From positions 201 to 64,200 of the forward strand of contig WTBR01000027.1 in NCBI GenBank assembly GCA_013138975.1: DNA of 64,000 nt, in the 5' to 3' direction. The notes under the pieces were generated by a model, which saw only the letters and a program-made list of their open reading frames with translations, was not told the DNA's origin and ran no database searches. The DNA is from Bacteroidales bacterium (GTDB lineage: Bacteria > Bacteroidota > Bacteroidia > Bacteroidales > UBA12077). A program made the translations under genes and the position numbers. This document shows positions 271 to 24,857 of this stretch, piece after piece; positions within the stretch are counted from its first letter, which is position 1; every line of letters starts with the position of its first letter.

Positions 271-2643
271 TTACTCATATTTTAATGCTTCAACTGGATT
301 TATGTATGCAGCTTTTAAAGAATGATAAATTACTGATATGAATCCAAATAAAAATGTTATTATACTTGATAATATATAAATGCCAATTCCTATGTTGGTT
401 TTGAATACAAAGCTATTCAACCATTGTTTTACAAACCAATGAGATAATGGGATTGCAATAATGACTGCTATTAATATTAAAATAGCAATATCTTTATAAA
501 GCAAAAAGATTATTTGAGAAATAGATGACCCTAATTGTTTTCTTATTGCTATTTCTTTGTTTCTACTTCCAATCATATAAGATGATAAACCTATTAAACC
601 TAGACATGATAAGATAAAACATATAATTGAAAACATTTTTACCGTTTTAAACTGGTTTACTTCTCCATTATAAGCTTGTGATATATGCTCATCAATAAAA
701 GAATATTGAAACTCTACTTCCGGTACTATTTCTTCCCAAATAGACCGTATATCCTGAATTGCATTATCAACTTTATTTTCATTCATCCTTACATGTAAAT
801 GTCCTCCTGGATATAAAATCATCACAATTGGTTCTACCTCGTTATGTAATGAATTTATATTAAAATCTTTTAGGACGCCTATTATTTCACCAATCGGCCA
901 TGCAGAGAAAGCTCCTCCAATTGCTTTAATCTTTTTTCCTACACCATTTTCCCAGCTCATATGCTTAACAAAAGCTTCATTAACTACATATGCTGAATAT
1001 GTATCAGAATTAATATTCTTGTCAAATCCTCTCCCCTCAACAACATTCATTTCCATCGTTTCAATATAATCAGGATCTACGATTAACCAATAAAACATTT
1101 GAGCTTCAAATCCAGATTCAGATTCGATATTAAAGTTAGCAATTCCAATTTGTGAATTTGGCAATGTATAAGCAGTTGCTGCATTTTTAATATTTGGACT
1201 TTTAAAAAGGTTTTCTTTTAAAACAGATATTCTTGAATGATCAATTCCTCTTAAAGGAATTGAAATTAAGTTTTCCTTATTAAATCCAAGATCCCTGTTG
1301 TTAATATAATTAATTTGTTTGTTCATTACTAAAACACCAATCAATACACTTATTGAAAGAACAAATTGAACAATTATTAATGATTTTCTAAAAATGGAAT
1401 CCTTTTTTTTATGTTTATATCCTGAACTAACAGCACCTAATGAAGAAATCATTGATAAACGAAAAGCAGGATATAATCCTGAAAGAAACCCAACTATTAA
1501 AGATAATCCCAAAGCCATTAACAGTAATTTAATATTTTCATTAAACTTAAATTGAAGTCTTGAATCCAATATCATATATAAATAATTTGAATCTATAATT
1601 ATCCTAACTATTACTATCCCAATTATAAATGCAATAAAAGTTAATAACATTGACTCGAAAATAAAATAAATACGAAGTGTATTAAGGTTTGCTCCAAATA
1701 TCTTTTTTAATCCAATTTCTTTTGTTCTGTTTATTGAAAATGCTGTTGACATGTTAATATAGTTTGTAGCTGATATCAATACTATAAAAAGACCAACAAT
1801 TCCAAATATGTATATATAAATTTTATTACCTTGAGACAGATCTCTTGGTAACCCTGAATTAAAATGAATATCGGCTAATGGCTCCAAAATAATTTTCGCA
1901 TCAACTTTTATCCTTTGAGCTGCCTCTGACATATATTTGTCAAATAATTGTGGATACTTTTCATAAATATTTTCAACTTTAGCTTTTTTATTTAATAATA
2001 CATATGTAAAACAACTTGTATTAAACCAGCCTTCTCCAATTGCTTCATAACTAACTAATGCATCAAATTTTAAATGAATATTTTCAGGCAAGTTCTTTAT
2101 AACACCTGTAACCTCATAATTTAAAGTGTCAATCATTAAAGTTTGACCAATTGGATTTTTATTTCCAAAGTATTTTTTAGCCAAATTACTCACAATAACA
2201 ATTGAATTTTTCTTTTCTAAAAAGTCTTCAACATTTCCTTCTAAAAACTCATACGAAAAGATATCAAACACACTTGTATCCGCAAAGAAAATGCCATTCT
2301 CTTCGTACGTTATATCATTATATTTTACAATAGCATCATAAATTTTTCTATACCTAACAAATGAGATTACTTCTGGGCATTCATTTTTAATCATAGGTCC
2401 CATTCTCTCCGATGACAATGCTTTCTTCATTGATTGACCAGATTCAGTAGTAAATTCTGATCCAATTCTATAGATCTGTGAATGTTTTTTATGATACTTA
2501 TCGTAGTTTAATGAACTCTCTAAATAAAATAAAATTATTACACCACAAACAATGCCTAATGTGAGATTAATGATATTGAACAAAAAGTATTTTTTATTCT
2601 TCATCATAATCCTGAATGCTAACTTTAGATTTTTTTTAATCAT
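271..2643 (-). CDS. FtsX/MacB-family ABC transporter permease (long two-repeat form, 790 aa)
   Basis: Intact ORF. The N-terminus MIKKNLKLAFRIMMKNKKYFLFNIINLTLGI is followed by a TM helix, a large extracytoplasmic region, a central block of TM helices, a second extracytoplasmic region and a C-terminal FtsX-like TM block. This long form is the family expanded in Bacteroidota. No ATPase partner is present in the window. Confidence 0.85.
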   Translation of the reverse strand: MIKKNLKLAFRIMMKNKKYFLFNIINLTLGIVCGVIILFYLESSLNYDKYHKKHSQIYRIGSEFTTESGQSMKKALSSERMGPMIKNECPEVISFVRYRKIYDAIVKYNDITYEENGIFFADTSVFDIFSYEFLEGNVEDFLEKKNSIVIVSNLAKKYFGNKNPIGQTLMIDTLNYEVTGVIKNLPENIHLKFDALVSYEAIGEGWFNTSCFTYVLLNKKAKVENIYEKYPQLFDKYMSEAAQRIKVDAKIILEPLADIHFNSGLPRDLSQGNKIYIYIFGIVGLFIVLISATNYINMSTAFSINRTKEIGLKKIFGANLNTLRIYFIFESMLLTFIAFIIGIVIVRIIIDSNYLYMILDSRLQFKFNENIKLLLMALGLSLIVGFLSGLYPAFRLSMISSLGAVSSGYKHKKKDSIFRKSLIIVQFVLSISVLIGVLVMNKQINYINNRDLGFNKENLISIPLRGIDHSRISVLKENLFKSPNIKNAATAYTLPNSQIGIANFNIESESGFEAQMFYWLIVDPDYIETMEMNVVEGRGFDKNINSDTYSAYVVNEAFVKHMSWENGVGKKIKAIGGAFSAWPIGEIIGVLKDFNINSLHNEVEPIVMILYPGGHLHVRMNENKVDNAIQDIRSIWEEIVPEVEFQYSFIDEHISQAYNGEVNQFKTVKMFSIICFILSCLGLIGLSSYMIGSRNKEIAIRKQLGSSISQIIFLLYKDIAILILIAVIIAIPLSHWFVKQWLNSFVFKTNIGIGIYILSSIITFLFGFISVIYHSLKAAYINPVEALKYE

Positions 2644-2794: not shown

Positions 2795-5700
2795 TTATAA
2801 ATTAATTTCATTTAACAAAATATCCTCATTCGAAATGATCTTGTTAAATATACTTTTAAAATGATTTCCTAACTGATTTATAAAATCAATAGAATATGCA
2901 TTTTTATTATATTGGAAAGAAATCTCCAATTTATCGGCATTAAAAACACTTATATCTATGTTATAATAGATTGAATCAATAAGTTTAATTTGATCCAAGC
3001 TAATTCTGTTAGTATCAGAAGGACTATTGAAAATATTTTCAACCTCACTAAAATAATTATAACGTTGCATTCCAACGATACTTTTTGTAAATTTTAATTT
3101 TTCTGCTTTTAATTTTTTAATTGTATTAATTTGAATATAGCCATGCTTTTTGCATTTTTCAAGATTGGATTCGACAGTTTTGAGCAAATCAATAAATCGA
3201 AAAGTTGGGTCAAATTGAATTTTAATTGGGATAATATTACTGAATGAGCCTACTGCACTGCATAGTCCTCGAATTTCATCTTGTCTTCCACTTAAAATCG
3301 CTCCAAAAACAACTTCATTCTTATTATATAATTTTGAAAGTATTATTCCCCATACTGAATAAAATATAGTCATAAATAATACATTTGAATTTAAATAAAA
3401 TTTATTAAGTAAATGTGTTTGTTGTTCGTTTAAAAAATCTTTATAAATTCCTTCCTCAAAAATTGAAGTTTCAGAATTAAGTTTTTTAAATTCTGATAAA
3501 TCAGTAAAACAATTAACATCTCTCAAATAGTTAACCCAAAACTTCTCGCTTTCAGCATAATCCTGATTTTTGACCCATTCGCAGTATCTTTGATATTGCA
3601 CAGGTCTCTTCAAAGATATTTCCTTTCCACATAAAATCAGTTGGTATATTTCTAATAATTGCTTCATTAAAATATTGATAGACATCGCATCCATTATTGC
3701 TTGATGCGAACTTATAATCATTCTATATTCTTTATTTTTGATCTTAAGAATGGTAACCCTAATTAAAGTATCGTTACTGAGATCAAATCCTTTTTCTTTA
3801 TCTTTTTGTTCATAATTCATTAATATTGATTCTAAATCATTAATATTATCCTTTTCAGATACATTATGATATAAAAAATCTATTTTACGTTCCTTTAAAA
3901 CCACTTTTAATGGCTGATTTGAATTACTAATATAAAAAACGGATCTTAATGTTTCATGACGTTTTAATAATTCATTAAAACTTTTCTCAAGAATCAAAAT
4001 ATTAATATCACCAGAAATTCTACAACTAAATTGAATTAAATTTGAATTTCCATAAACGTCCGCAGGTAAAACACTTAACTGCATAGGTGTTAATTTATCA
4101 ATATCTTCAATTTCAAATTTTGAACTTAAAAAATCAATTTCATTTAATGATATATTTTTATATGTGAAATCTGAAGAAACAGGAATTATTTTAGAATTTC
4201 TGGTGGAATAATCAACAATATTGATTAAAGAAACTTTATAATGATTAATTAAATCTGAAATCTGCCTTTCACTATAGTACTTTTTCTTATAATTTAGGGA
4301 TACTGTTAGTGCCCCTTTAGCTATCATGCAATTAAACGCTAAGTCTATATTGGTTTTTCTATTAGAACTTATAGAATCACCACCATATTCTTTAGCAATA
4401 CTAAACTGTTTCATTTGTTCAACTTCTGTGTCAAATTGTCCTAAATAGTTAAATATAATTTTTGGCTCATTTTCAAAACAGAGACCTTCTATTAATTCAG
4501 TCTTACTCAAGTGTTTTAAAACTCCATATCCAATTCCTTTATCTGGTACTCGTTGCAAATTTTCTTTTATACTATTTATTTGCATCGAAAGATTATCAAT
4601 ATATTTCATTTCAAGTAGTATTGGATACTTTGTAGTAAACCATCCTATAGTCCTACTTATATCAATATCTGGAAACAATTCTTCACGCCCATGCCCCTCA
4701 AGATAAACCAGTATATTCTCATTTCCTAAGGCTTCCCTAATTCCACAACCTAATCCGCAAAGAAGAATATCATTTATCTCGGTACTATTTGATCCATTTA
4801 TTTGAGTTAACAGTTTATTTGTTATTGTTGCACTTAGAGTAAATTGTTTATTTCCTATTTCATTATCACCAATGTTTTCATCATCAATATCGTGGTTTAA
4901 TGATAATCGATCTCTGTCAAGAATATTTTTCCAATATGTTCTTTGTTCGAGTAATTTTTTACTTTCTGCGTACTCTGTCAGTTTATCAGACCAATCTTTA
5001 AACGAATTACTTTTCGGAGGTAATTTTGGCTCATCTCCCGTTGATAATTTTTTATATAGAGTTTCAATATCCTCAAATATTATTCTCCATGAAATCCCAT
5101 CTGTTACTAAGTGATGAATTACAATTAAAAGTCTATCACCGTCTGATAAATGGAATAAACCTAACTTCATCAATGGTCCATCTTCTAAATTTATGGATCG
5201 TTGTATCTGATTTGCATAAAATGTTAAATTTTCATCTACATTACTATTGTCTTCTAGATTATAAACCTTAAGTGAAATTGGAGAACCTTCTGAATCCTTA
5301 TTATTTAAAACATATTCCCCGTCTTGGTATTTACATATTATTCTCAAAGCATCATGATGTTCTTGCAACTTCAAGATCACTTTTTCCAATATTTTCTTAT
5401 CCAGCCTTTTAATTGAATGTAGTAAAACTGATTGGTTATGATGATTTAAATCAGTTGTATCTTTAAAGAAATGGTGTTGAGCTGGAGTCTTTTTAATAAG
5501 GCCACTTACCGCAACTTGAGAAACTTCGTTCGCTTTTAGTGTAATTCGTGGTGCTAAATCCGAAATAGTAGGGAATTCAAATATACTTTTAACAGTAGTT
5601 CTATAGCCTGCTTTATTCATTCTAGCCTGAATCTGTATTGCTTTTATTGAATCCCCACCTATTTGAAAGAAGTTTTTATTAATTCCAATATTTTCTATAT

Positions 5701-8700
5701 TAAGCACTGTACTCCAAACTTCTGCTAATTTTCTTTCAATTTCGTTTCTTGGAGCTACAAAGCCATCATTTATTGATATATTAGGTATAAATAAAGATTC
5801 TTTGTCAATTTCTCCCTTTTCATTTCTCGGCATATTTCTAACAACAATAAAATATTCAGGAATAAACAATTCTGAGTATTTTTGCAGGAAAACATTTTTT
5901 AATCTTAATACTAACTGGCTTTCCTTTTTTAAATCAGATTGATCCTTAAACTCCACATAACAGTACAATTCACCTGATTCATCATGTAATATAATTACTA
6001 AATCAAGAACAAATTCTGATTCTTTTAAATATTTTTCTACTTCATCTAAATAAAAGTAATAATTTCTAACTTTCTTTTTAGAAGAATCTGATTTCAAAAA
6101 CTCAATATTTCCATCAGACATTAATCTTCCAATATCTCCACTAATATATATTAAATTATCTCCAAAGGGATTAGAAATAAAATTTCGTTTATTTTCATGT
6201 GAATATTCACTAAATAGTGTATTTATAGCAATTTTACCTGGCATTCCAATACCACATTTGTTCCTATTTTCATCAAGTATGGTCAGGTTTGAAAAAGAAT
6301 TTCCTTTTCCAATAACAGGTATTGATATGTTTGAATTCTCCTGTGTAATCTCATAACCTGAATTAATCATTGAAGTTAACTCAGTACCATATAAATTTAT
6401 AAATTTTGTATTTTTAGAATACTTACCATTCTTTTGTAGAATATCATTTAATGTCAATTGACTATTATAAAAAAATAAATATTGTAAATTGATTATTTGA
6501 TTATTTGATTCCGAATATAATTTATGAAAGAAAGAATTAGAACAAGTTATTAAATGACTTATATTAAACTTATTAATTAAAAAGGGCAGATCATAATTTC
6601 TCAGATTCAAATTTACAGGTTTACCTTCATTCTTATTTATTTTCTGATAATTAAAATCAAAACCTGCACTCCAAAATTTTTCAATTTTTCTGTACAAATA
6701 TGGTAAATCTGAGTCTTTATTATTTTGATGTTTTGTTAAATCATATAGCGAATATTTAGATTTGTCAAAATTTGCATGTTGTTTTACAAGTTGTATCAGA
6801 TTTTGTCCAGGGCCAATCTCTAATAATATTAATTTTTTATCTGTTAATATTTGAGATAATCCGGCGGAAAAATTAACTGTTGATCTTAATTGATTAAACC
6901 AAAAATCGTTGCTAAGATCTTCTTTCGATTTAATAATAGAACCTTTAAAACAAGTAATATAATCAATTTGAGGGTCTTTAATTGTTATTTCTTTTGAAAT
7001 TTCCTTAAAATCATCCTCAATCAAATTCATAAGTGAAGAATGGCTAGCTTTGTCAAAGTTCAATCTAATATATAATATTCCACTCTTATTTAATTCTTCT
7101 TCCAGATCAGTGATTTCATTTGTTAGTCCAGAAATAATACAATTTTCAGGTCCATTTATAGCTGCTATAGAAATTGAACCAAATAATAATTTGTTTATTT
7201 CATCAGCTGAGATGAATACATTTGTCATAGCCCCGTCTGGGGTTTTTAGCATTAATTTACTTCTTGTAACTATTAATTTCAGAATATCCGATAACGCAAC
7301 CACTTCTGCTATAGAAGCTGCAACATATTCACCAAAACTGTGTCCAATCAAAGCGGTTGGTTTTATTCCCCAACTGATAAGTAATTTTGAAAGGGAATAT
7401 TCATAGATAAATTTTATTGGAGCACTATAGGTTATAGATTTGAATTTATTCTGACTCTCTTTAAAATCAATATCTATAGGGTATAATACTGATTTAAGAT
7501 CAACATCCATAATTCTATTTAAAATGTCAAAACAATTATCAATTGTTTCTTTAAAGAAAGGTATATTTTCATATAAATCTCTACCCATATTAACATACTG
7601 TGAACCCAATCCAGAGTACATAAAAACAATATTAGTATCAGCAAATTCGTTAGTTGTACTAACATCAGAATCGATATTATATTTCGTTATACATTTCTGC
7701 AGATCATTAATACTATTTGATATGAAAGCCTTTTTGAATTGTAATGCTTTACTCTGGCATAAAGTATAAGATAAATCATTTATTTTAAGGTTTCTTTTTC
7801 TTTGTATAACTTGTTTTAAATTTTTTATACGATTATCTAAACCTAATTTAGTCGCAGATGATAATGGGATAAAATAATACTTTCCGTTATCATTTTCATA
7901 AGAATCTATTTGTGTAAGGACAGGCTCATCGTCCTCAAAACGTAAATTAAAATCTTGTTTTAAGTTATTTGTGTAATCAAGATTTAGATCTGTAATACAA
8001 ATTACTCCTCCACAAAATATGATTGACATTATTTCTAGTAAATTGAAAGAAACATCAAAATCAGAAGATAAAATGGTTTTTGGTGTAGTTTCAATCTTAT
8101 ATTTTTGAATAAACCAATATAGCAATGATGATAAATTCTCGTTTGTAATAGATGTTTTTATTATTTCATTCTTTTTTGAGTAAGTATTAAATATTGCAAT
8201 TTTGTCACCAGGTAAATAGTCTATTTCTATTTCAGTAAAATTTACATATGCTTGTTCAATAACTTCTTCGTATATAAATGAAAACTTATGATCTGTTATT
8301 GAATTACTAATTACTAAATCAACATCTTCTATTTTGACTGGAATCACATCACTTTTAGGAACATATGCGCATCCCGCCTTAATTACACCAAGTATTGAAA
8401 TGATCATCTCAATTTCATCACCCAGAAAAACACCTACTTTACTTCCTTTCTCAAAGTTCCTTTTAATGTAATTAGATATTATTGAAGCCCTTTTATTTAT
8501 TTCAGAGTAAGTTATCTGAATATCATCTTTTATTATTGCAATTCTGCCAGAATGGATATTAAATATTTCTTTTAATTCCATTTGAACTGGAATATTGTGT
8601 GTGTTTTTATTTTCGAAACTAAGAAATTCTTGAATAAGGTTTTCTTTCTCTATTGAATTTATTAAATCAATATCTACAATTTTTTGATTCTGGTTAATTA

Positions 8701-10138
8701 AAATTGAACTAAATATATTTTTAAAGTATGTTATATATCGGTCAATTGTTACGGATTTAAATAGTTTTGTACAATACTCAAAATTTAGTAATATTTGTTT
8801 ACCATAATCAACTGCTGTCAAGGATAAATCAAATTTTGATAATCTAACCTTATGAACATGTAAGTGGTTGCTAAAATCCGATAAAACCTTATCAGATTTT
8901 TCTTTATTAATCATATTAAACTTTACATCAAACAAGGGATTGCGACCAGCGTCTCGTATTACTAAAATTTTCTCAATTAGATCTTCGAACTGATAATCCT
9001 GATTTTCATAGGACTCAAGCGTCGTTTGCATTAATTTTTCAAAAAAAACCTTTACAGTATCTTCCCCTTTTACTTCGTTTCGAATAGCAAGTGTATTCAC
9101 AAACATCCCAACGATTTGGAACAAATCGGCATAATTACGTCCTACTAATGGGGTTCCCACCACAATATCTTCCTGACCACTTAACTTTGATAATAATATT
9201 TTAAAAACTGACAGAATTGCCATGGAAATAGTTATCCCATTCTCTTCTGTTAGTAACTTAATAGCTTCTGTTTCTTTTTGGTTTAATATAAAACTTACTG
9301 AGGCCCCTTCATGGCTCTGTACAACTGGACGTTTATAATCTGTCGGGAGACTCAATACCGGAACTTTTCTTTCAAATTTACGAATCCAGTAATCTGCTTG
9401 ACCTTTAATCTTTTTTTGCTGTACCTTACTATTTTGCCACTCACTATAATCTTTATATTGTAATTTTAAAGGAGTTAACTTTTGATCAGAATATAGGAGA
9501 AAAAATTCTTTTTCTAAAATACCGTCAGAGAATGCATCATTTATAATATGATGCATATCTAATAATAATACGGATTTCTTTCCTTTTATATTAACTAGTG
9601 CAGCCCTTATAAGTGGCGCTTTGTCTAAGTAAAAAGGTTTTTTAAATATATTCTCAATTTCATTTTCTTTGTTCTTATCAATAAAAAATTCCTCAATATT
9701 AAATTCCACCTTTTCCTTTATGCATTGAATAGGTTCTTCATCAAGCAATTCAAAGCTAGTTCTCATGCTTTCATGACGTTGTATCAAAATTTGAAATGTT
9801 GCTTCTATTTTTTCTTTATCCGGATTCAAGCCTAACGGTATAACATAAGGCATATTGTAAACTACAGACTCCAAATCCATCTGTTGTAATAAAAAGATTC
9901 TCCTTTGTGCAAAGGATAAATGATAATATTCTTTTTTTTCACTATTAATAATTAAAGATGATGATTCGCCTTGAAAATCTTTAAGAATCTTAATTACATC
10001 GCTTTTCTTCTTTTTTAATTCATTTATAAGTTCATCAATTAAGATTCCCTTAGGTATTTTTAGTTTTAGTTTTTCTTCTTCAACACTTAATATAACATGC
10101 TTCTTATTTAATTCCGCCAAAAGTTCTTTAACTTTCAT
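2795..10138 (-). CDS. NRPS subunit, last in the operon: dock-C-[degenerate A with embedded PKS-type AT]-T-E-[C-like, HQxxxDA]
   Basis: 2447-aa ORF. The N-terminus resembles a TubC-type docking region. C motif MHHIINDAFSDG (HH at 9548-9553). A-domain remnants are a2 LGVIKAGCAYVP, a P-loop replaced by FNTYSKKNEIIKT (~8163-8215), a4 SSDFDVSF (~8043-8070), a5 NLYGTELTS (~6369-6399) and a10 NEKGEIDK. AT motif ALIGHSFGEY at 7325-7354. T motif FFQIGGDSIKA (Ser 5648-5650). E motif HHLVTDGISWRI (HH 5111-5116). The terminal C-like domain carries HQAIMDA (3686-3706). Confidence 0.9.
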   Translation of the reverse strand: MKVKELLAELNKKHVILSVEEEKLKLKIPKGILIDELINELKKKKSDVIKILKDFQGESSSLIINSEKKEYYHLSFAQRRIFLLQQMDLESVVYNMPYVIPLGLNPDKEKIEATFQILIQRHESMRTSFELLDEEPIQCIKEKVEFNIEEFFIDKNKENEIENIFKKPFYLDKAPLIRAALVNIKGKKSVLLLDMHHIINDAFSDGILEKEFFLLYSDQKLTPLKLQYKDYSEWQNSKVQQKKIKGQADYWIRKFERKVPVLSLPTDYKRPVVQSHEGASVSFILNQKETEAIKLLTEENGITISMAILSVFKILLSKLSGQEDIVVGTPLVGRNYADLFQIVGMFVNTLAIRNEVKGEDTVKVFFEKLMQTTLESYENQDYQFEDLIEKILVIRDAGRNPLFDVKFNMINKEKSDKVLSDFSNHLHVHKVRLSKFDLSLTAVDYGKQILLNFEYCTKLFKSVTIDRYITYFKNIFSSILINQNQKIVDIDLINSIEKENLIQEFLSFENKNTHNIPVQMELKEIFNIHSGRIAIIKDDIQITYSEINKRASIISNYIKRNFEKGSKVGVFLGDEIEMIISILGVIKAGCAYVPKSDVIPVKIEDVDLVISNSITDHKFSFIYEEVIEQAYVNFTEIEIDYLPGDKIAIFNTYSKKNEIIKTSITNENLSSLLYWFIQKYKIETTPKTILSSDFDVSFNLLEIMSIIFCGGVICITDLNLDYTNNLKQDFNLRFEDDEPVLTQIDSYENDNGKYYFIPLSSATKLGLDNRIKNLKQVIQRKRNLKINDLSYTLCQSKALQFKKAFISNSINDLQKCITKYNIDSDVSTTNEFADTNIVFMYSGLGSQYVNMGRDLYENIPFFKETIDNCFDILNRIMDVDLKSVLYPIDIDFKESQNKFKSITYSAPIKFIYEYSLSKLLISWGIKPTALIGHSFGEYVAASIAEVVALSDILKLIVTRSKLMLKTPDGAMTNVFISADEINKLLFGSISIAAINGPENCIISGLTNEITDLEEELNKSGILYIRLNFDKASHSSLMNLIEDDFKEISKEITIKDPQIDYITCFKGSIIKSKEDLSNDFWFNQLRSTVNFSAGLSQILTDKKLILLEIGPGQNLIQLVKQHANFDKSKYSLYDLTKHQNNKDSDLPYLYRKIEKFWSAGFDFNYQKINKNEGKPVNLNLRNYDLPFLINKFNISHLITCSNSFFHKLYSESNNQIINLQYLFFYNSQLTLNDILQKNGKYSKNTKFINLYGTELTSMINSGYEITQENSNISIPVIGKGNSFSNLTILDENRNKCGIGMPGKIAINTLFSEYSHENKRNFISNPFGDNLIYISGDIGRLMSDGNIEFLKSDSSKKKVRNYYFYLDEVEKYLKESEFVLDLVIILHDESGELYCYVEFKDQSDLKKESQLVLRLKNVFLQKYSELFIPEYFIVVRNMPRNEKGEIDKESLFIPNISINDGFVAPRNEIERKLAEVWSTVLNIENIGINKNFFQIGGDSIKAIQIQARMNKAGYRTTVKSIFEFPTISDLAPRITLKANEVSQVAVSGLIKKTPAQHHFFKDTTDLNHHNQSVLLHSIKRLDKKILEKVILKLQEHHDALRIICKYQDGEYVLNNKDSEGSPISLKVYNLEDNSNVDENLTFYANQIQRSINLEDGPLMKLGLFHLSDGDRLLIVIHHLVTDGISWRIIFEDIETLYKKLSTGDEPKLPPKSNSFKDWSDKLTEYAESKKLLEQRTYWKNILDRDRLSLNHDIDDENIGDNEIGNKQFTLSATITNKLLTQINGSNSTEINDILLCGLGCGIREALGNENILVYLEGHGREELFPDIDISRTIGWFTTKYPILLEMKYIDNLSMQINSIKENLQRVPDKGIGYGVLKHLSKTELIEGLCFENEPKIIFNYLGQFDTEVEQMKQFSIAKEYGGDSISSNRKTNIDLAFNCMIAKGALTVSLNYKKKYYSERQISDLINHYKVSLINIVDYSTRNSKIIPVSSDFTYKNISLNEIDFLSSKFEIEDIDKLTPMQLSVLPADVYGNSNLIQFSCRISGDINILILEKSFNELLKRHETLRSVFYISNSNQPLKVVLKERKIDFLYHNVSEKDNINDLESILMNYEQKDKEKGFDLSNDTLIRVTILKIKNKEYRMIISSHQAIMDAMSINILMKQLLEIYQLILCGKEISLKRPVQYQRYCEWVKNQDYAESEKFWVNYLRDVNCFTDLSEFKKLNSETSIFEEGIYKDFLNEQQTHLLNKFYLNSNVLFMTIFYSVWGIILSKLYNKNEVVFGAILSGRQDEIRGLCSAVGSFSNIIPIKIQFDPTFRFIDLLKTVESNLEKCKKHGYIQINTIKKLKAEKLKFTKSIVGMQRYNYFSEVENIFNSPSDTNRISLDQIKLIDSIYYNIDISVFNADKLEISFQYNKNAYSIDFINQLGNHFKSIFNKIISNEDILLNEINL
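2798..4155 (-). other. Terminal condensation-like domain with altered active-site motif (HQAIMDA instead of HHxxxDG)
   Basis: Residues ~1995-2447 align with the DCL-type C domains elsewhere in the window (LTPMQ..., RHETLRSVF). Aligned on the conserved MD, SFHHILMDGWC in the other domains corresponds to SSHQAIMDAMS here, so the second (catalytic) His is Gln and the Gly is Ala. Confidence 0.7.
5760..8596 (-). other. Degenerate (probably non-adenylating) A-domain scaffold interrupted between a4 and a5
   Basis: The a4-to-a5 spacing is ~555 aa, against ~92 aa in the intact A domain of the 855-aa subunit in this window. The glycine-rich P-loop TSGSTGxPKG is absent (TYSKKNEIIKT). a5 lacks Pro (YGTELTS). 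a6 (GKIAINTLFSEY) and a8 (FLKSDSSKKKVRNYYFYLDEVE) are decayed. a7 YISGDIG and the a10 Lys are retained. Confidence 0.7.
6555..7880 (-). other. PKS/FAS-type KS-AT linker + acyltransferase + post-AT linker unit embedded in the A-domain scaffold
   Basis: KS-AT-linker-like YYFIPLSSATKLGLDNRIKNLKQ...LSYTLCQSKALQFKKAFISNSINDLQKCI. AT motifs are FMYSGLGSQYVNMG (~7600-7632), GHSFGE (Ser at 7337-7339), Arg at +25 from the Ser (LIVTRSKLM, as for FabD S92/R117), and KASH with His at +99. Post-AT linker-like LLEIGPGQNL...KFWSAGFDFNYQ...NYDLPFLINKF (~6555-6835). Confidence 0.8.
9971..10138 (-). other. TubC-type N-terminal docking region
   Basis: MKVKELLAELNKKHVILSVEEEKLKLKIPKGILIDELINELKKKKSDVIKILKDF has the pattern of TubC-like docking domains (helix; 'X-L-x-v-eg-d-kL-k-l-k-a-p-kg-l-l-t-d-eL' strand pair; helix). 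The upstream subunit ends with the acidic/hydrophobic tail ...IEYDEIEI. Confidence 0.6.
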
Positions 10139-12793: not shown

Positions 12794-14482
12794 TTAAACT
12801 AAATTAAAATCCCAATCTGTATCAAATAAATTGCTTGCTTTATTTATTATTTGCTTATTTCGACATTCCTTTACAACTGAATTTTCTTTTTCAAAATCAA
12901 TATAGCTTGGTACAGCATTTATATGAAGTTCTTTCCATCTCTTATCAGCATCAATTATTTCGTTCAATGAATAAGGATTAGGAATATTTAATTTCTTACA
13001 ATGTTCTATAAACCTGTTTACCCGACTATAAATTTCTTCTCTATTTGGTTCTGTATCAAGAAAATACGACTGCCCCAATAACATCTCTTTTTCATAATTA
13101 TCATATACTTCACCTATTTTGCCATTTTTTATAAAACTATCAGAACCAGACTGTCCAGTATACGAATAAATAAAGGGACAGCAATCTGCTTCATAAATAT
13201 CTTCACTTAATCTCTCTAACAGGTCCAGTGTCATTTGAAAATCTTCTTCAGTTTCACCAGGATAACCACAAATCCAATATGTTGTTGTTTTAACTCCTGC
13301 TTCAGCAAGGGATGAAATCGCAGATATTATTTCATCTATTTTTATTTTTTTATTCATTAAATCAAGTACTTTTTGAGAACCACTTTCAACTCCTATGCGT
13401 GCTCTGTAAAAACCACCCTTCCTCCATAAAAAAGAATTTTCAAGATAAGAACCATTCTTATCAACCCTAAGATACCCATCAAAATAAACAGGAGTATTTT
13501 CTTTAGCTATTTCTACTGACAGTTCCGTAATTATAGGATTTAAAAGTGAATCACACATAAGAAAAAGTTGATTCTTATGTGTTTTATACATTTCTTTTAA
13601 ATCATCTAGTACATGCTTTATATTCTTCGTTCTATATTTACCCTTATAAACTGTTTCAGAACAAAATTCACATTGCATATAACAGCTTCTTGAACCCTCA
13701 TAAGAATCTAACATGTAGAAAGATAAATCAAGATCAGAAAAATCAGGACTTTTCACATCAGAAATTGGAAATACCTCACCATCAAGATCTTTTATAGTAA
13801 AAACCCTTTTAGATTCAAGAAATTCATTTCTAAAATATTTCAATAACAATAATTCTGATTCACCTATAAAAATTTTATCAAAAATATCTTCTGTTTTTTT
13901 AAGAAAAAATTTAAAATTTGGAGAATTTAATGTCAAGTCTGAAAAAATTGAGCCTCCAATTAACGTCGTAATATAAGAAAATCTCTTTTTAATAATTCGA
14001 GCAGCAAAAAGAGAAGAAGGAAATGTATCATTGTAAACAGAAAATCCAATCGTTGTTGGTTTTTCTGTTTCAATTAAATCAATAATATATTTTTCAAAAT
14101 ATTCAAAATATTCTTTTATATAGTCATCGATTTCGTTAATTTGAAGATCATTCAATTTTGTAAAATAAGTCCTCCAAATTAACTTTCTTATTAAGTTTTT
14201 ATACCTTGCTTCATCTTTTCTATTAATAAAAGCCATCATATGATTTTTTAAAACATCATAGCCTATATTGAGAAAATTTCCTCTTTTTTGTTTTGGTATG
14301 ATTTTTTTTAAAAGCTCAAAATATAAGGAGATATACTCTTTTAGCTTTACATCAATATTTGCATCAACAATTCTAATATCATATCCATATTGTTTTAAAA
14401 AGCTTTTTAAAACTGAAATACCAGTCGGCGGTATCAATGTATCCCAAAAAGGTAACATTAAAAATATATTTTTTTCTTTCAA
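12794..14482 (-). CDS. B12-binding-domain-type (class B-like) radical SAM enzyme, stand-alone
   Basis: 562-aa ORF. N-terminal Rossmann/B12-binding-like region (FLMLPFWDTLIPPTGISVLKSFLKQYGYDIRIVDANI...TTIGFSVYND...TLIGGSIF...IFIGESELLL). CxxxCxxC motif SCYMQCEFC at 13661-13684. GFYRARIGVESGSQKVLDLMNK motif. About 45% identical by eye to the 563-aa paralogue at 23166-24857. The start in the ORF track is a TTG (14480-14482) preceded by AAAGGAG. Confidence 0.85.
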   Translation of the reverse strand: MKEKNIFLMLPFWDTLIPPTGISVLKSFLKQYGYDIRIVDANIDVKLKEYISLYFELLKKIIPKQKRGNFLNIGYDVLKNHMMAFINRKDEARYKNLIRKLIWRTYFTKLNDLQINEIDDYIKEYFEYFEKYIIDLIETEKPTTIGFSVYNDTFPSSLFAARIIKKRFSYITTLIGGSIFSDLTLNSPNFKFFLKKTEDIFDKIFIGESELLLLKYFRNEFLESKRVFTIKDLDGEVFPISDVKSPDFSDLDLSFYMLDSYEGSRSCYMQCEFCSETVYKGKYRTKNIKHVLDDLKEMYKTHKNQLFLMCDSLLNPIITELSVEIAKENTPVYFDGYLRVDKNGSYLENSFLWRKGGFYRARIGVESGSQKVLDLMNKKIKIDEIISAISSLAEAGVKTTTYWICGYPGETEEDFQMTLDLLERLSEDIYEADCCPFIYSYTGQSGSDSFIKNGKIGEVYDNYEKEMLLGQSYFLDTEPNREEIYSRVNRFIEHCKKLNIPNPYSLNEIIDADKRWKELHINAVPSYIDFEKENSVVKECRNKQIINKASNLFDTDWDFNLV

Positions 14483-23165: not shown

Positions 23166-24857
23166 TTAGAAACTAAAATCACCTTCATCCAATAAAGTTG
23201 ATTTTAAACTACAAATTTCTTTAAACTCTTTATTTTCAGAAATTATGTCATTTCTATTTTGGAAATCGATTAATGAAGGAACAGCATTTTTATGTAATTT
23301 CATCCATCTTTCATCTGCAAATTGAATCTCATACAATGAATAAGGGTTAGGTATTCCAATATTTTTACAGTGTTCAACAAACCTTGAAACTCTATCATAT
23401 GTTTCCTTTCGAGACGGTTCACAATTTATAGTCCAAGATTCCATCATTAACATATCCTTTGCTTCTGCCGGATAAAGCAATTTTCTTTGTTTAACCCATT
23501 TTACTGAATCTGCTTGTCCCGTATATGCAAATATAAATGGGTTGCACTCTGTTTCCCAGATATAATTTCTCATTTCCGAAACAAAATCTAAGGTTTGTTG
23601 AAAATCTTTCTCTGTTTCTCCGGGGTGTCCTATGACTATATATGCAGTAGTTTTAATTCCAGCTTTTGCGAGAGCAGATAGGGTTCTTTTTGATTGTTCA
23701 ACTGTAATATTCTTCCCCATAAGATCAAGAACATTTTGAGAGCCACTTTCAATTCCAATTCTAGCGCGATAAAAACCCCCTTTTCTCCACTTAAGTGTAT
23801 TTTCAATTTTGCCACTCTCATCATCAACCCTTAAATAACCATCATAATATAACGATACATTCCTTGATATAAATTCTTTTGCCAAATCATCAATAATTGG
23901 ATTTAACAATGCATCATTCATGAAAAACATTTGATGCCCATACTTTTCATATAATTCAACCATTTCATCTACAGTTTGATCGACTGGTTTCTTTGTATAC
24001 TTTCCGTAAAATGTTGCTACATTACAAAAACTACATTGAAAAGGACAACTAGATGATCCTTGCGCTGCTAAATACGTATAATTTTGTCTGACATTGAAAT
24101 TACTCATATCCGGAAAATTCTCAAGAGACTCGTTTAGTTCTTTTTCACATATATCATTTAATGTAAAAACTTTCCGATCGTTAGGCAACTCTCCATTTAA
24201 TAATTTTAAGAATAAACCTTCACCTTTTCCAATTAAGATATTATCTATAAAAGGAGTTTTATCTATAAAATTCTTAAAATTGGGGGTGTCTTTGATTAGA
24301 TGATCCGAAAAGATACTTCCGCCCATTACGGTCATTATATTTGGATTTTTTTCCTTTATTAGTTTAAATATATATAATGATGGTGCAATTGTATCACGCA
24401 ATACAGAGATTCCCAATACATCAGGATTAAATTCATAAAATATTTTTAAAAAATAACTTTCTAATTGTTCAAAAAACTCATCTAGAATATTTTTTAATTC
24501 ATATAGAAATGATTCATCATTTTTGTAATAAAAGGTGTTAAATATTATAAGATCCAATAATTTGATATATTCGGTTTCATCAACATAATTAATATGAGCC
24601 ATCATATGATCTCTCATTACATTATGACCTAAATTATATAAATTACTAAGATTGTACTCAGGTATTGCATTTTTTAAGGTATTAAAATACCTGTCGTATA
24701 TTGATTTAAATTGACTCTCAATATTTGCATCTATTGTATAGACTGAGTGTCCATTTTTTTCGAGAGCACTTTTTAAATATGTAATTCCCTGTGGTGGAAT
24801 TAATGGTGTCCAGTATGGCAGTAAACCAAGCAGTACCTTCTTTTTATTATGTAACAT
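23166..24857 (-). CDS. B12-binding-domain-type (class B-like) radical SAM enzyme, stand-alone
   Basis: 563-aa ORF. N-terminal B12-binding-like region (VLLGLLPYWTPLIPPQGITYLKSALEKNGHSVYTIDANI...PDVLGISVLRD...TVMGGSIF...ILIGKGEGLFLKLL). CxxxCxxC motif SCPFQCSFC at 24024-24047. GFYRARIGIESGSQNVLDLMGK motif. Paralogue of 12794-14482. Confidence 0.85.
   Translation of the reverse strand: MLHNKKKVLLGLLPYWTPLIPPQGITYLKSALEKNGHSVYTIDANIESQFKSIYDRYFNTLKNAIPEYNLSNLYNLGHNVMRDHMMAHINYVDETEYIKLLDLIIFNTFYYKNDESFLYELKNILDEFFEQLESYFLKIFYEFNPDVLGISVLRDTIAPSLYIFKLIKEKNPNIMTVMGGSIFSDHLIKDTPNFKNFIDKTPFIDNILIGKGEGLFLKLLNGELPNDRKVFTLNDICEKELNESLENFPDMSNFNVRQNYTYLAAQGSSSCPFQCSFCNVATFYGKYTKKPVDQTVDEMVELYEKYGHQMFFMNDALLNPIIDDLAKEFISRNVSLYYDGYLRVDDESGKIENTLKWRKGGFYRARIGIESGSQNVLDLMGKNITVEQSKRTLSALAKAGIKTTAYIVIGHPGETEKDFQQTLDFVSEMRNYIWETECNPFIFAYTGQADSVKWVKQRKLLYPAEAKDMLMMESWTINCEPSRKETYDRVSRFVEHCKNIGIPNPYSLYEIQFADERWMKLHKNAVPSLIDFQNRNDIISENKEFKEICSLKSTLLDEGDFSF

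What the first reader, a model, noticed from the sequence alone, without database searches (positions are those of the whole stretch)
5760..8596. Terminal module: decayed A domain used as a scaffold for an embedded PKS-type acyltransferase (C-[A*::AT]-T-E-C*)
**Seen in sequence.**
- The A domain keeps a1/a2, a4, a7 and the a10 Lys. It has lost the P-loop (TYSKKNEIIKT in place of TSGSTGxPKG) and has eroded a5, a6 and a8.
- Between a4 and a5 there is a ~460-aa insert comprising a KS-AT-linker-like segment, an AT and a post-AT linker. This looks like a unit lifted from a type I PKS without its KS.
- The AT has GLGSQ, GHSFGE, Arg at +25 and KASH with His at +99, so all catalytic residues expected of a malonyl-type AT are present.

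**Established knowledge.** The a4-a5 loop is a known insertion site (monooxygenase domains in MtaG/MelG). I know of no characterised AT insertion there.

**Inference.** The T domain of this module is probably loaded by the AT from an acyl-CoA (a malonyl-type or other carboxy-acyl unit) rather than by adenylation. Alternatively the AT-fold domain acts as an acyl hydrolase or transferase in chain release. With no KS present, it is not obvious how the upstream C domain would use such a unit.
Basis: partly seen in the sequence, partly recalled or inferred. Interest (0 to 1): 0.82.

Follow-up and report, generated by a model that had tools for sequence, protein, structure and literature searches.

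The report
Acyltransferase embedded in dead adenylation domain
The last module of a large peptide-making assembly line carries a worn-out amino-acid-activating domain with a complete, apparently working polyketide-type acyltransferase spliced into it, an arrangement I found nowhere else, which suggests the final building block is loaded without ATP.

Summary
ORF9 (window 2795-10138, minus strand, 2447 aa) reads dock-C-A*N-[KS/AT-linker-AT-post-AT-linker]-A*C-T-E-C*.

- **A domain.** A profile of the 11 other A domains in the window matches ORF9 in two pieces, aa 522-718 and aa 1188-1455. Together they make one full-length A domain split by a 469-aa insert. It keeps only 35 of 92 conserved columns.
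- **AT.** The insert is an Acyl_transf_1 domain (Pfam E 1e-36). It keeps 29 of 32 conserved columns, including S934, R959 and H1033.
- **Rarity.** No other protein showed this arrangement among the 150 best hits from 1.84 billion representatives, nor in 80 metagenome loci.
- **Relative.** An Aminicenantes MAG cluster, related through its radical-SAM-interrupted NRPS, ends in KS-AT-PCP-C. Its AT carries the same rare motif signature.

Most likely the AT loads the module's T domain with a malonyl-type unit, probably one bearing an alpha substituent, in place of adenylation. Which unit it is, and how the C domain uses it, remain inferred. It is a new variant of interrupted A domains and NRPS/PKS hybrids. 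Interest is high.

The parts
2795..10138 (-). ORF9, the terminal NRPS protein (2447 aa): dock-C-A*N-[AT unit]-A*C-T-E-C*
   Evidence: It is an intact ORF in DNA of 27% GC.
9980..10132 (-). TubC_N-type N-terminal docking domain (aa 3-53)
   Evidence: Pfam PF18563, E 5e-9. The upstream ORF8 ends in T plus a short acidic tail.
8636..9931 (-). C1, a canonical condensation domain (aa 70-501) with motif HHIINDA
   Evidence: It is 45-50% identical overall to in-cluster LCL-type C domains, and up to 62% locally.
7985..8575 (-). A*N, the N-terminal piece of the degenerate A domain (aa 522-718; a1 and a2 kept, P-loop lost, FD present)
   Evidence: In-cluster A-domain HMM nodes 8-216, 59.6 bits. Motif comparison.
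6578..7984 (-). 469-aa insert (aa 719-1187): KS-AT-linker-like segment, AT and post-AT linker
   Evidence: It is the gap between HMM nodes 216 and 229. It aligns to ZmaA-AT 4QBU residues 8-436, E 5.9e-79. NCBIfam PKS match at aa 753-1176. GC 27.2% and GC3 18.3%, the same as the host gene.
6764..7633 (-). AT core (aa 836-1125) with GLGSQ, GHS934FGE, R959 and KASH1033
   Evidence: Pfam PF00698, E 1.3e-36. Residues confirmed. 29 of 32 conserved columns kept.
5774..6577 (-). A*C, the C-terminal piece of the degenerate A domain (aa 1188-1455; a5 NLYG-TE, a7 YISGD, a6 and a8 eroded, a10 Lys replaced by Glu)
   Evidence: HMM nodes 229-498, 96.9 bits.
5534..5743 (-). T (PCP) domain, aa 1466-1535, GGDS1497I core of the type that precedes E domains
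   Evidence: Pfam PP-binding, E 4e-12. About 61% identical locally to ORF3's T.
4124..5503 (-). E domain (aa 1546-2005) with HHLVTDG and EGHGRE intact
   Evidence: TIGR01720 at aa 1850-2002. It is a paralogue of ORF3's E.
2804..3991 (-). C*, a terminal DCL-like condensation-type domain (aa 2050-2445) whose active-site motif reads SHQAIMDA (catalytic His replaced by Gln)
   Evidence: It is 40% identical to ORF3's terminal C domain. No TE or R domain occurs in the window.

Best explanation
ORF9 is the last module of a 14-module NRPS. Its A domain no longer adenylates and survives as a full-length structural scaffold. It holds the C domain, the swinging A-subdomain and the T domain in the usual module geometry.

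A self-contained PKS unit (KS-AT linker, AT, post-AT linker) is spliced into the surface region between motifs a4 and a5. This unit has taken over substrate loading.

Proposed steps:
1. Ser934 is acylated by a malonyl-type thioester. Arg959 binds its free carboxylate. The donor is CoA or a discrete ACP.
2. The AT passes the unit to the phosphopantetheine on Ser1497 of the T domain in the same module. No ATP is used.
3. C1 looks like an ordinary peptide-bond-forming C domain and there is no KS. The unit is therefore most economically an alpha-hetero-substituted malonate (hydroxy- or aminomalonyl type). Its OH or NH2 attacks the peptidyl thioester delivered by ORF8.
4. The T-E-C* block, a paralogue of ORF3's, then handles the product.

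**Shown:** anatomy, loss of adenylation residues, integrity of the AT, rarity, and relatedness to a KS-AT-PCP-C terminal module.

**Inferred:** that the AT loads the cis T domain, the identity and carrier of the acyl unit, and the release step.
For: **A is dead but full length.**
- It matches the in-cluster A-domain HMM in two pieces covering nodes 8-498.
- It keeps only 35 of 92 columns conserved in the other A domains. The other A domains keep 77-92 of 92-104 such columns in the same leave-one-out test.
- a3 keeps 1 of 11 columns and a8 keeps 4 of 14; the a10 Lys is Glu.
- Neighbouring domains are far better conserved than A*. C1 is 45-62% identical to in-cluster paralogues and T-E-C* is 47.6% identical to ORF3, while A* is only 24-39% identical locally.

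**AT is intact.**
- Pfam E 1.3e-36.
- S934, R959 and H1033 are present.
- 29 of 32 conserved columns are kept.
- The insert covers the same KS-AT-linker/AT/post-AT-linker unit that was crystallised alone for ZmaA (PMC4207774).
- Free-standing proteins made of this unit exist in cyanobacteria.

**The insert is not recent.** Its composition equals that of the host gene and there are no flanking repeats.

**The AT is not serving a PKS in this window.** No KS is present.

**A related cluster pairs this AT type with a PCP.**
- L002 (Aminicenantes MAG) has a radical-SAM-interrupted NRPS 42-44% identical to ORF3, followed by a terminal KS-AT-PCP-C protein.
- Its AT shares the target's rare signature: YSGP / GHSFGE / NFPRASHS against YSAP / GHSFGE / NFDKASHS.
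- Its carrier is PCP-like (GGDSL, 36% identical to ORF9's T).

**The motifs fit an alpha-substituted unit.**
- The xASH motif has a small third residue.
- Phe follows the catalytic Ser.
Against:
- The window, which is almost the whole 64,360-bp contig, holds no hydroxymalonyl- or aminomalonyl-ACP pathway genes and no discrete ACP.
- The AT sits on a long, unresolved branch. Its best sister has 43% bootstrap support and is a HAFH malonyl-type AT.
- The RXR signature is noisy among homologues.
- The FabD Gln11 and Gln63 equivalents are Leu and Ala.
- In the related L002 cluster the same AT type feeds an intact KS, so the unit could be a plain decarboxylative extender that a C domain cannot use.
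- A Lys or Arg at the first YASH position would sit poorly beside a protonated amine, which argues against aminomalonyl.
- C* lacks the catalytic His and there is no TE, so release is unexplained.
- I found only this one example, so no covariation or conservation test is possible.
Confidence: 0.5

Rival explanations
1. The AT-fold domain off-loads rather than loads. The finished chain on the T domain is passed to Ser934 and then hydrolysed or transferred to CoA, an ACP or another acceptor. This would make up for the missing TE and the crippled C*.
For: - There is no TE or R domain in the window, and C* has Gln in place of the catalytic His.
- AT-fold terminal off-loaders are known, for example PfaB (PMC12895367). 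The fungal FAS malonyl/palmitoyl transferase is another, cited from my own knowledge.
Against: - The T domain would still need loading while A* is dead.
- The AT keeps Arg959 and the cis-AT KS-AT-linker context typical of extender-loading ATs.
- Its nearest signature-mate sits in an ordinary KS-AT-PCP loading position.
Confidence: 0.12
2. The AT acts on carriers other than the adjacent T domain, for example as a fused trans-AT for a PKS encoded elsewhere or as a tailoring malonyltransferase. The T domain would be loaded in trans by another A domain, such as ORF8's.
For: - The contig ends within about 360 bp of the window, so the rest of the genome is unseen.
- Free-standing linker-AT proteins exist.
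- A domains that load carriers of other modules are known, for example in yersiniabactin synthetase (my own knowledge).
Against: - There is no KS in the 64 kb.
- In 80 metagenome loci every related AT not cut off by a contig end sits in cis after a KS, so the AT belongs with cis-ATs rather than trans-AT clades.
- Embedding the AT inside the very domain whose function was lost is most simply read as replacement.
Confidence: 0.13
3. The module is a decaying relic that is skipped or non-functional, and the AT insert has no present role.
For: - A* and C* have both lost catalytic residues.
- The protein is a singleton with no orthologue.
Against: - The ORF runs 2447 codons without a stop in 27% GC DNA. 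Stop codons should occur at about 8% of random codons (my own calculation from the base composition).
- Erosion is confined to A* and C*. The AT (29 of 32 columns), T (GGDS), E (HHxxxDG, EGHGRE) and C1 (HHxxxDA) are intact.
- A* has kept its full length.
Confidence: 0.1
4. The AT loads plain malonyl (or alkylmalonyl), and C1 catalyses a KS-independent decarboxylative C-C bond formation with the upstream peptidyl thioester.
For: - The same AT signature feeds an intact KS in the related L002 cluster, so the unit is probably a decarboxylative extender.
- C-domain homologues can form C-C bonds in Pictet-Spengler domains such as SfmC (my own knowledge).
Against: C1 is 45-62% identical to ordinary amide-forming C domains of the same cluster and has a normal HHxxxD motif. 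No such C-domain chemistry has been described.
Confidence: 0.05

Closest known systems
Interrupted adenylation domains (A-M-A such as TioN, TioS and KtzH; also KR, Ox and MOx inserts)
   Same: A foreign catalytic domain is spliced in frame into an A domain, and the two A halves still add up to one full-length A fold. The window holds other examples: ORF4 with an M insert, and ORF3 with radical-SAM plus M inserts.
   Different: - Known interrupted A domains are bifunctional and still adenylate (PMC11355689, PMC8341866). Here the host A domain has lost the P-loop, a8 and the a10 Lys.
- The reviews read here list M, Ox, KR and MOx inserts at a2-a3, a6-a7 and a8-a9. An AT insert is not among them.
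- The a4-a5 site is reported for MOx in MtaG/MelG. This rests on my memory of Labby et al. 2015 and was not verified here.
ZmaA acyltransferase domain (zwittermicin PKS; PDB 4QBU), specific for hydroxymalonyl-ACP
   Same: - It is the best solved-structure match (E 5.9e-79, 34% identity) and covers the whole linker-AT-post-AT unit.
- Both have Phe after the catalytic Ser, a hydrophobic 'RXR' motif (MCM against LYI), a non-Gln residue at FabD position 11, and a small residue at the third xAxH position (PMC4207774).
   Different: - ZmaA has GYSFG and GAAH. The target has GHSFG and KASH.
- ZmaA follows a KS and feeds a KS.
- The NJ tree did not join the two, and bootstrap support was low throughout.
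- No hydroxymalonyl-ACP genes occur in the window.
Terminal KS-AT-PCP-C protein P0002 of an Aminicenantes MAG cluster (locus L002, GCA_011771225.1)
   Same: - It has the same rare AT signature (Y-S-[GA]-P-[IV]-K, GHSFGEY, N-F-[PD]-[RK]-A-S-H-S).
- Its carrier is PCP-type.
- It ends in a C-like domain whose best match in the window is C*.
- It lies next to a radical-SAM-interrupted NRPS 42-44% identical to ORF3, and an ABC transporter follows.
   Different: - There the AT sits behind an intact KS (Cys-His-His), and there is no A domain or E domain.
- Here C-A* occupies the place of the KS.
- The ATs are only 35% identical.
Carrier-to-carrier AT-fold shuttles for amino-bearing units (ZmaF and ClbG for aminomalonyl; VinK for dipeptidyl)
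   Same: They are AT-fold enzymes that deliver a unit carrying a nucleophilic amine to an assembly-line carrier without adenylation by that module. ZmaF is described in PMC4207774. ClbG and VinK are cited from my own knowledge.
   Different: They are discrete trans-acting proteins that feed PKS modules. None is embedded in an A domain or known to feed a C domain directly. ZmaF has GYSLG and GPFH (PMC4207774), which differs from the target.
Proposed C-AT-PCP cassette in RenK (renieramycin cluster)
   Same: It is a bioinformatic proposal that an NRPS module uses an 'AT' instead of an A domain to bring a hydroxy-acid (glycolate) unit to a C domain (PMC13249901).
   Different: It is annotation only. 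The kind of AT is not defined, it is not embedded in an A domain, and it has not been tested. I did not compare sequences.

Membership tests
Acyl_transf_1 / malonyl-CoA:ACP transacylase-type AT domain | Profile match above the curated threshold | tested here: met
   PF00698 scores 127.1 bits against a cut-off of 32.7, E 1.3e-36, aa 838-1123. TIGR00128 fabD E 1.8e-35, below its equivalog cut-off as expected for a PKS AT.
Acyl_transf_1 / malonyl-CoA:ACP transacylase-type AT domain | GHSxG nucleophile Ser, catalytic His in xAxH about 100 residues later, and Arg at +25 for the malonyl carboxylate | tested here: met
   GHS934FGE, R959 (+25) and KASH1033 (+99). All three align with homologues.
Acyl_transf_1 / malonyl-CoA:ACP transacylase-type AT domain | Gln of the GQGSQ motif (FabD Gln11) and Gln of TQP (FabD Gln63) | tested here: not met
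   The target has GLGSQ and YSAP. Gln11 also varies in the active ZmaA (Asn) and in several homologues. The TQP Gln is at least 90% conserved and is lost here and in P0002.
cis-AT of type I PKS (KS-AT didomain unit) | KS-AT linker and post-AT linker flanking the AT | tested here: met
   The insert aligns to 4QBU residues 8-436, which include both linkers (PMC4207774). There is a weak CurL-like_PKS_C hit at aa 756-815 and an NCBIfam PKS match at aa 753-1176.
cis-AT of type I PKS (KS-AT didomain unit) | A KS immediately upstream in the same protein | tested here: not met
   No KS is found in ORF9 or anywhere in the window. In 80 related metagenome loci every AT not cut off by a contig end follows a KS.
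Interrupted adenylation domain | Two A-domain pieces that together make one complete A domain around an inserted catalytic domain | tested here: met
   HMM nodes 8-216 match aa 522-718 and nodes 229-498 match aa 1188-1455.
Interrupted adenylation domain | The host A domain keeps its adenylation motifs (bifunctional enzyme) | tested here: not met
   a3 keeps 1 of 11 conserved columns, a6 keeps 1 of 6, a8 keeps 4 of 14, and the a10 Lys is Glu. Overall 35 of 92 columns are kept.
Interrupted adenylation domain | The insert is one of the described types (M, KR, Ox, MOx) at a described site | tested here: not met
   The insert is an AT. The reviews read list M, Ox, KR and MOx at a2-a3, a6-a7 and a8-a9 (PMC11355689, PMC8341866). 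The a4-a5 site is known for MOx only from my memory.
ATs specific for ACP-tethered extender units (ZmaA, ZmaF, methoxymalonyl-ACP ATs) | Hydrophobic residues in place of RXR five residues before the YASH motif | tested here: inconclusive
   The target has LYI and ZmaA has MCM (PMC4207774). Many HAFH-type homologues also lack two basic residues there, so the signature is weak.
ATs specific for ACP-tethered extender units (ZmaA, ZmaF, methoxymalonyl-ACP ATs) | Genes for the extender pathway (FkbH-like enzyme, discrete ACP, dehydrogenases) in the cluster | tested here: not met
   The twelve large ORFs (at least 562 aa), which tile 271-63948, were scanned with Pfam; none encodes such a gene. The four 102-118 aa plus-strand ORFs lying inside them were not scanned. 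The contig ends within about 360 bp of the window, so genes elsewhere cannot be excluded.
trans-AT PKS system | AT-less KS modules that need a free or fused AT | tested here: not met
   There is no KS in the window.
Functional AT-to-T loading in this module | Self-acylation of Ser934 and transfer to holo-T Ser1497 | not testable with these tools
   This needs intact-protein MS or radio-assay.

The most novel reading that the evidence does not exclude
This is an NRPS elongation module in which a PKS acyltransferase has functionally replaced adenylation. A condensation domain would then consume an AT-loaded, ATP-independent malonyl-type unit directly, with no ketosynthase. It would do so either by acylating an alpha-OH or alpha-NH2 of the extender, or, more radically, by a decarboxylative C-C condensation. 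That would be a new way of joining PKS and NRPS logic, and a natural template for swapping A domains for ATs.
Probability: 0.45. Interest if true: 0.88.

Novelty: new variant of a known kind. Interest (0 to 1): 0.76.

Why it matters
- NRPS modules are defined by ATP-dependent adenylation. PKS extender units normally reach the chain only through a KS.
- A module in which an AT loads the carrier and a C domain does the coupling would add a third kind of NRPS/PKS junction.
- It would widen the set of building blocks a peptide line can take, to malonate-derived units at the C-terminus.
- It would show that a dead A domain can be kept purely as a scaffold.
- It would give engineers a natural splice site (a4-a5) and natural boundaries (KS-AT linker to the post-AT 'YDLPF') for grafting ATs into NRPS modules.
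- The paired clusters, KS-AT-PCP-C in the Aminicenantes MAG and C-A*[AT]-T-E-C* here, offer a natural experiment on what a KS and a C domain each make from the same AT type.

Tried and rejected
- **Source and flanks.** The genome-contig scan gave only one spurious 19% hit. Megablast against plasmids found nothing. Exact look-ups of the permease and of ORF9 found no record. The cluster look-up showed ORF9 is a singleton on a 64,360-bp contig, so flanks cannot be seen.
- **A second example of the architecture.** I searched 5.8 billion clustered proteins three times and 1.84 billion representatives once, then re-scanned all 221 proteins fetched up to that point locally. I also examined 80 metagenome loci. 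None has an AT between A-domain halves. P0034, which looked like C+AT without a KS, is simply truncated at its N-terminus.
- **AT specificity by phylogeny.** The NJ tree with 200 bootstraps was unresolved, so I do not call the AT 'ZmaA-clade' (an earlier Biopython version timed out).
- **Structure prediction.** Four MAFFT alignments (A1, A2, A4, A5) all misplaced the A-domain rows across the 469-aa insert (checked). I therefore did not submit a misleading alignment to AlphaFold. No structure job was run.
- **Traces of a recent insertion.** Only AT-rich chance repeats flank the insert, and its composition matches the host.
- **Literature.** I found no AT-interrupted A domain. The 'C-AT-PCP' phrase in PMC13249901 is an untested annotation.
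- **Trans-AT PKS helper.** Rejected as the main reading because the window holds no KS.
Full report
**Context.** The window has about 27% GC and all its large genes lie on the minus strand. Pfam scans and local phmmer mapping give nine NRPS proteins, two free-standing B12/radical-SAM proteins and a MacB/FtsX-type permease. The NRPS proteins read as follows:
- ORF1: A-T-C-A-T-C-A-T-C-A-T
- ORF2: dock-C-A-T-C-A-T
- ORF3: dock-C-A[rSAM/B12][MT]-T-E-C
- ORF4: halfC-A[MT]-T-E
- ORF5: C-A-T-C-A-T-C
- ORF6: halfC-A-T-E
- ORF7: C-A-T-C
- ORF8: halfC-A-T
- ORF9: the target

There is no KS, TE or R domain anywhere in the window. Three proteins start with TubC_N docking domains (ORF2, ORF3, ORF9). Three proteins end in a T domain plus a short acidic tail (ORF1, ORF2, ORF8). 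Gene order and assembly order therefore agree, and ORF9 is the last module. ORF9 is recorded in NCBI nr as a singleton on a single 64,360-bp contig, so the window is nearly the whole contig. The best NRPS relatives come from Bacteroidales, Halanaerobiales, Aminicenantes and Clostridia MAGs. The source organism is not identified.

**Check of the observation.** Coordinates 5760-8596 are aa 515-1460 of ORF9 (2795-10138, 2447 aa).
- Pfam finds TubC_N at 3-53, Condensation at 70-501, AMP-binding only at 529-595, and Acyl_transf_1 at 838-1123 (E 1.3e-36). It also finds PP-binding at 1470-1529 and two further C-type domains.
- NCBIfam finds the A-domain C-terminal part at 1189-1378, the E-domain hallmark TIGR01720 at 1850-2002, and PKS KS-AT-type matches over 753-1176.
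- An HMM built from the 11 uninterrupted A domains of the window matches ORF9 in two pieces. Nodes 8-216 match aa 522-718 and nodes 229-498 match aa 1188-1455.
- This is one complete A domain with 469 residues (719-1187) inserted between a4 and a5.
- The insert aligns to residues 8-436 of the 444-residue ZmaA-AT crystal construct (E 5.9e-79). According to its paper that construct consists of KS-AT linker, AT large and small subdomains, and post-AT linker (PMC4207774).

**How dead is A*, and how alive is the AT?** I took the columns conserved in at least 10 of the 11 other A domains. A* keeps 35 of 92 of them. Each of the other A domains keeps 77-92 of 92-104 in the same leave-one-out test.

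| Motif | Conserved columns kept | Note |
|---|---|---|
| a3 (P-loop) | 1 of 11 | reads AIFNTYSKKNEIIK |
| a6 | 1 of 6 | |
| a8 | 4 of 14 | |
| a5 | 3 of 6 | NLYG-TE, Pro missing |
| a7 | 3 of 4 | YISGD |
| a2 | 3 of 3 | |

The a10 Lys is not conserved: both the MAFFT and the HMM alignment place Glu there (PRNEKGEIDK against PLTxNGKxDR). Yet A* has lost no length.

The AT, by contrast, keeps 29 of 32 columns that are at least 90% conserved among 56 homologues. The losses are F to Y, Q906 to A (TQP becomes SAP) and Y to F. The flanking domains are also well kept:
- C1 is 45-62% identical to in-cluster C domains.
- aa 1387-2447 (end of A, then T, E and C*) is a 47.6% paralogue of ORF3 1833-2896.
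- A* reaches only 24-39% identity locally, and the AT has no paralogue in the window.

The erosion is therefore specific to A* and to the C* active site. This is what one expects if adenylation was lost long ago while the rest stayed under selection. The insert has the same GC and GC3 as the host gene and no flanking repeats, so it is neither recent nor an assembly chimera. It is in frame at both joints, and its ends coincide with the natural ends of the AT unit.

**Is it unique?**
- Three word-indexed searches of 5.8 billion clustered proteins found no second protein with an AT between A-domain halves.
- A full HMMER scan of 1.84 billion representatives found none either. The only single-stretch full-length hit is ORF9 itself. 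Re-scanning all 221 proteins fetched up to that point locally found the AN-AT-AC order only in ORF9.
- In 80 metagenome loci with related ATs, all 95 AT-bearing ORFs have the AT after a KS or cut off by the contig end.
- The reviews of interrupted A domains that I read list M, Ox, KR and MOx inserts only (PMC11355689, PMC8341866).
- One limit applies. An independent, non-homologous AT-in-A protein scoring under about 390 bits would not have appeared in the top 150.

**A related cluster.** The AT carries an unusual signature: Y-S-A-P-I-K-F instead of the TQP motif, GHSFGEY, and N-F-D-K-A-S-H-S. Among about 190 ATs examined, only P0002 shares all of it (YSGPVKL, GHSFGEY, NFPRASHS). A small group shares parts of it: P0005, P0006, L003, L025, L034 and L081.

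P0002's contig (L002, Aminicenantes MAG) encodes the following:
- an NRPS with a B12/radical-SAM-interrupted A domain, 42-44% identical to ORF3;
- P0002 itself, which reads KS (Cys, His, His intact)-AT-carrier-C-like;
- a TolB-like protein and a beta-lactamase/ABC fusion.

P0002's carrier is PCP-like (GGDSL, an APRxE lead-in, 36% identity to ORF9's T). The best match of its terminal C-like domain in the window is C*. The two clusters are therefore relatives that end differently. One has KS-AT-PCP-C. The other has C-A*[AT]-T-E-C*. It also shows that this AT type naturally serves a PCP-type carrier.

**Which acyl unit?** This could not be settled.
- Arg959 argues for a free carboxylate, so a malonyl-type unit.
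- Ser at the third xAxH position and Phe after the nucleophile are compatible with an alpha-substituted extender other than methylmalonyl.
- The RXR motif is hydrophobic (LYI), as in the ACP-dependent ZmaA (PMC4207774). That signature is noisy among homologues.
- The NJ tree is unresolved, so '34% identical to ZmaA' is no more than the best solved-structure match.
- C1 looks like an ordinary peptide-forming C domain, and the T-E pair is of the standard kind (GGDSI, HHxxxDG, EGHGRE). A unit carrying an alpha-OH or alpha-NH2 would therefore let the module work without new chemistry.
- Against this, no hydroxymalonyl- or aminomalonyl-ACP genes or discrete ACP lie in the window, and the same AT type feeds a KS in L002.

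**Release.** C* is a DCL-type paralogue of ORF3's terminal C domain (40% identity). Its motif reads S-H-Q-A-I-M-D-A, and by alignment the catalytic second His is Gln. No TE is present. How the chain leaves is unknown. This keeps the off-loading reading of the AT alive, although that reading leaves the T domain unloaded.

**Verdict.** The feature is a new variant of interrupted A domains and of NRPS/PKS hybridisation, and it was the only example I could find. My confidence that the AT loads the cis T domain with a malonyl-type unit is about 0.5. No structure prediction was run, because every alignment the tool produced misplaced the A-domain rows across the insert.

Noticed in passing
window 37479-46223 (minus), ORF3 aa ~620-1187 and ~1503-1858: ORF3's single A domain is interrupted twice. 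A ~565-aa B12-binding/radical-SAM insert sits in the a2-a3 region, and a ~355-aa SAM methyltransferase insert sits near a8-a10. Homologous radical-SAM-interrupted A domains occur in L002 (42-44% identity) and in P0282. The reviews I read do not list radical-SAM inserts.
   Followed up: partly
window 23166-24857 and 12794-14482 (minus); the ORF3/4, ORF5/6 and ORF7/8 junctions: At three protein breaks the upstream NRPS ends in a complete C domain, and the downstream NRPS starts with only the C-terminal lobe of a C domain followed by A-T. At two of these breaks a free-standing B12/radical-SAM gene lies in between.
   Followed up: no
C-termini of ORF3 (about 37479), ORF5 (about 24959), ORF7 (about 14510) and the two radical-SAM proteins (about 23166 and 12794): These five proteins end in similar acidic-aromatic tails (..SNFSF..GEFQF..DGFNI..GDFSF..WDFNLV). 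They may share a docking peptide for the half-C N-termini of ORF4, ORF6 and ORF8.
   Followed up: no
window 2804-3991 (minus), ORF9 aa 2050-2445: The assembly line has no TE or R domain. It ends in a DCL-like C domain whose active-site motif reads SHQAIMDA, with Gln at the catalytic His position.
   Followed up: partly
L002 10001-14761 (P0002) and L002 1062-10004: An Aminicenantes MAG contig carries a relative of this cluster. It ends in KS-AT-PCP-C followed by a TolB-like protein and a beta-lactamase/ABC fusion. The carrier after the AT is PCP-like rather than ACP-like.
   Followed up: yes
P0344, P0347, P0349, P0351-P0353 (proteins of about 440-475 aa): Free-standing 'KS-AT linker + AT + post-AT linker' proteins with no KS exist. 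Those that carry a source name are cyanobacterial, and several have GYSIGE in place of GHSxGE.
   Followed up: no
window 271-2643 (minus): The gene downstream of ORF9 encodes a 790-aa MacB_PCD/FtsX-type permease with no ATPase domain. The window and contig end about 270-630 bp further on.
   Followed up: no
window 52687-63948 (minus), ORF1: The database holds this protein as 3823 aa (P0243), whereas the mechanical ORF call gives 3753 aa from a TTG start. The true start is therefore probably further upstream, near the end of the window.
   Followed up: no
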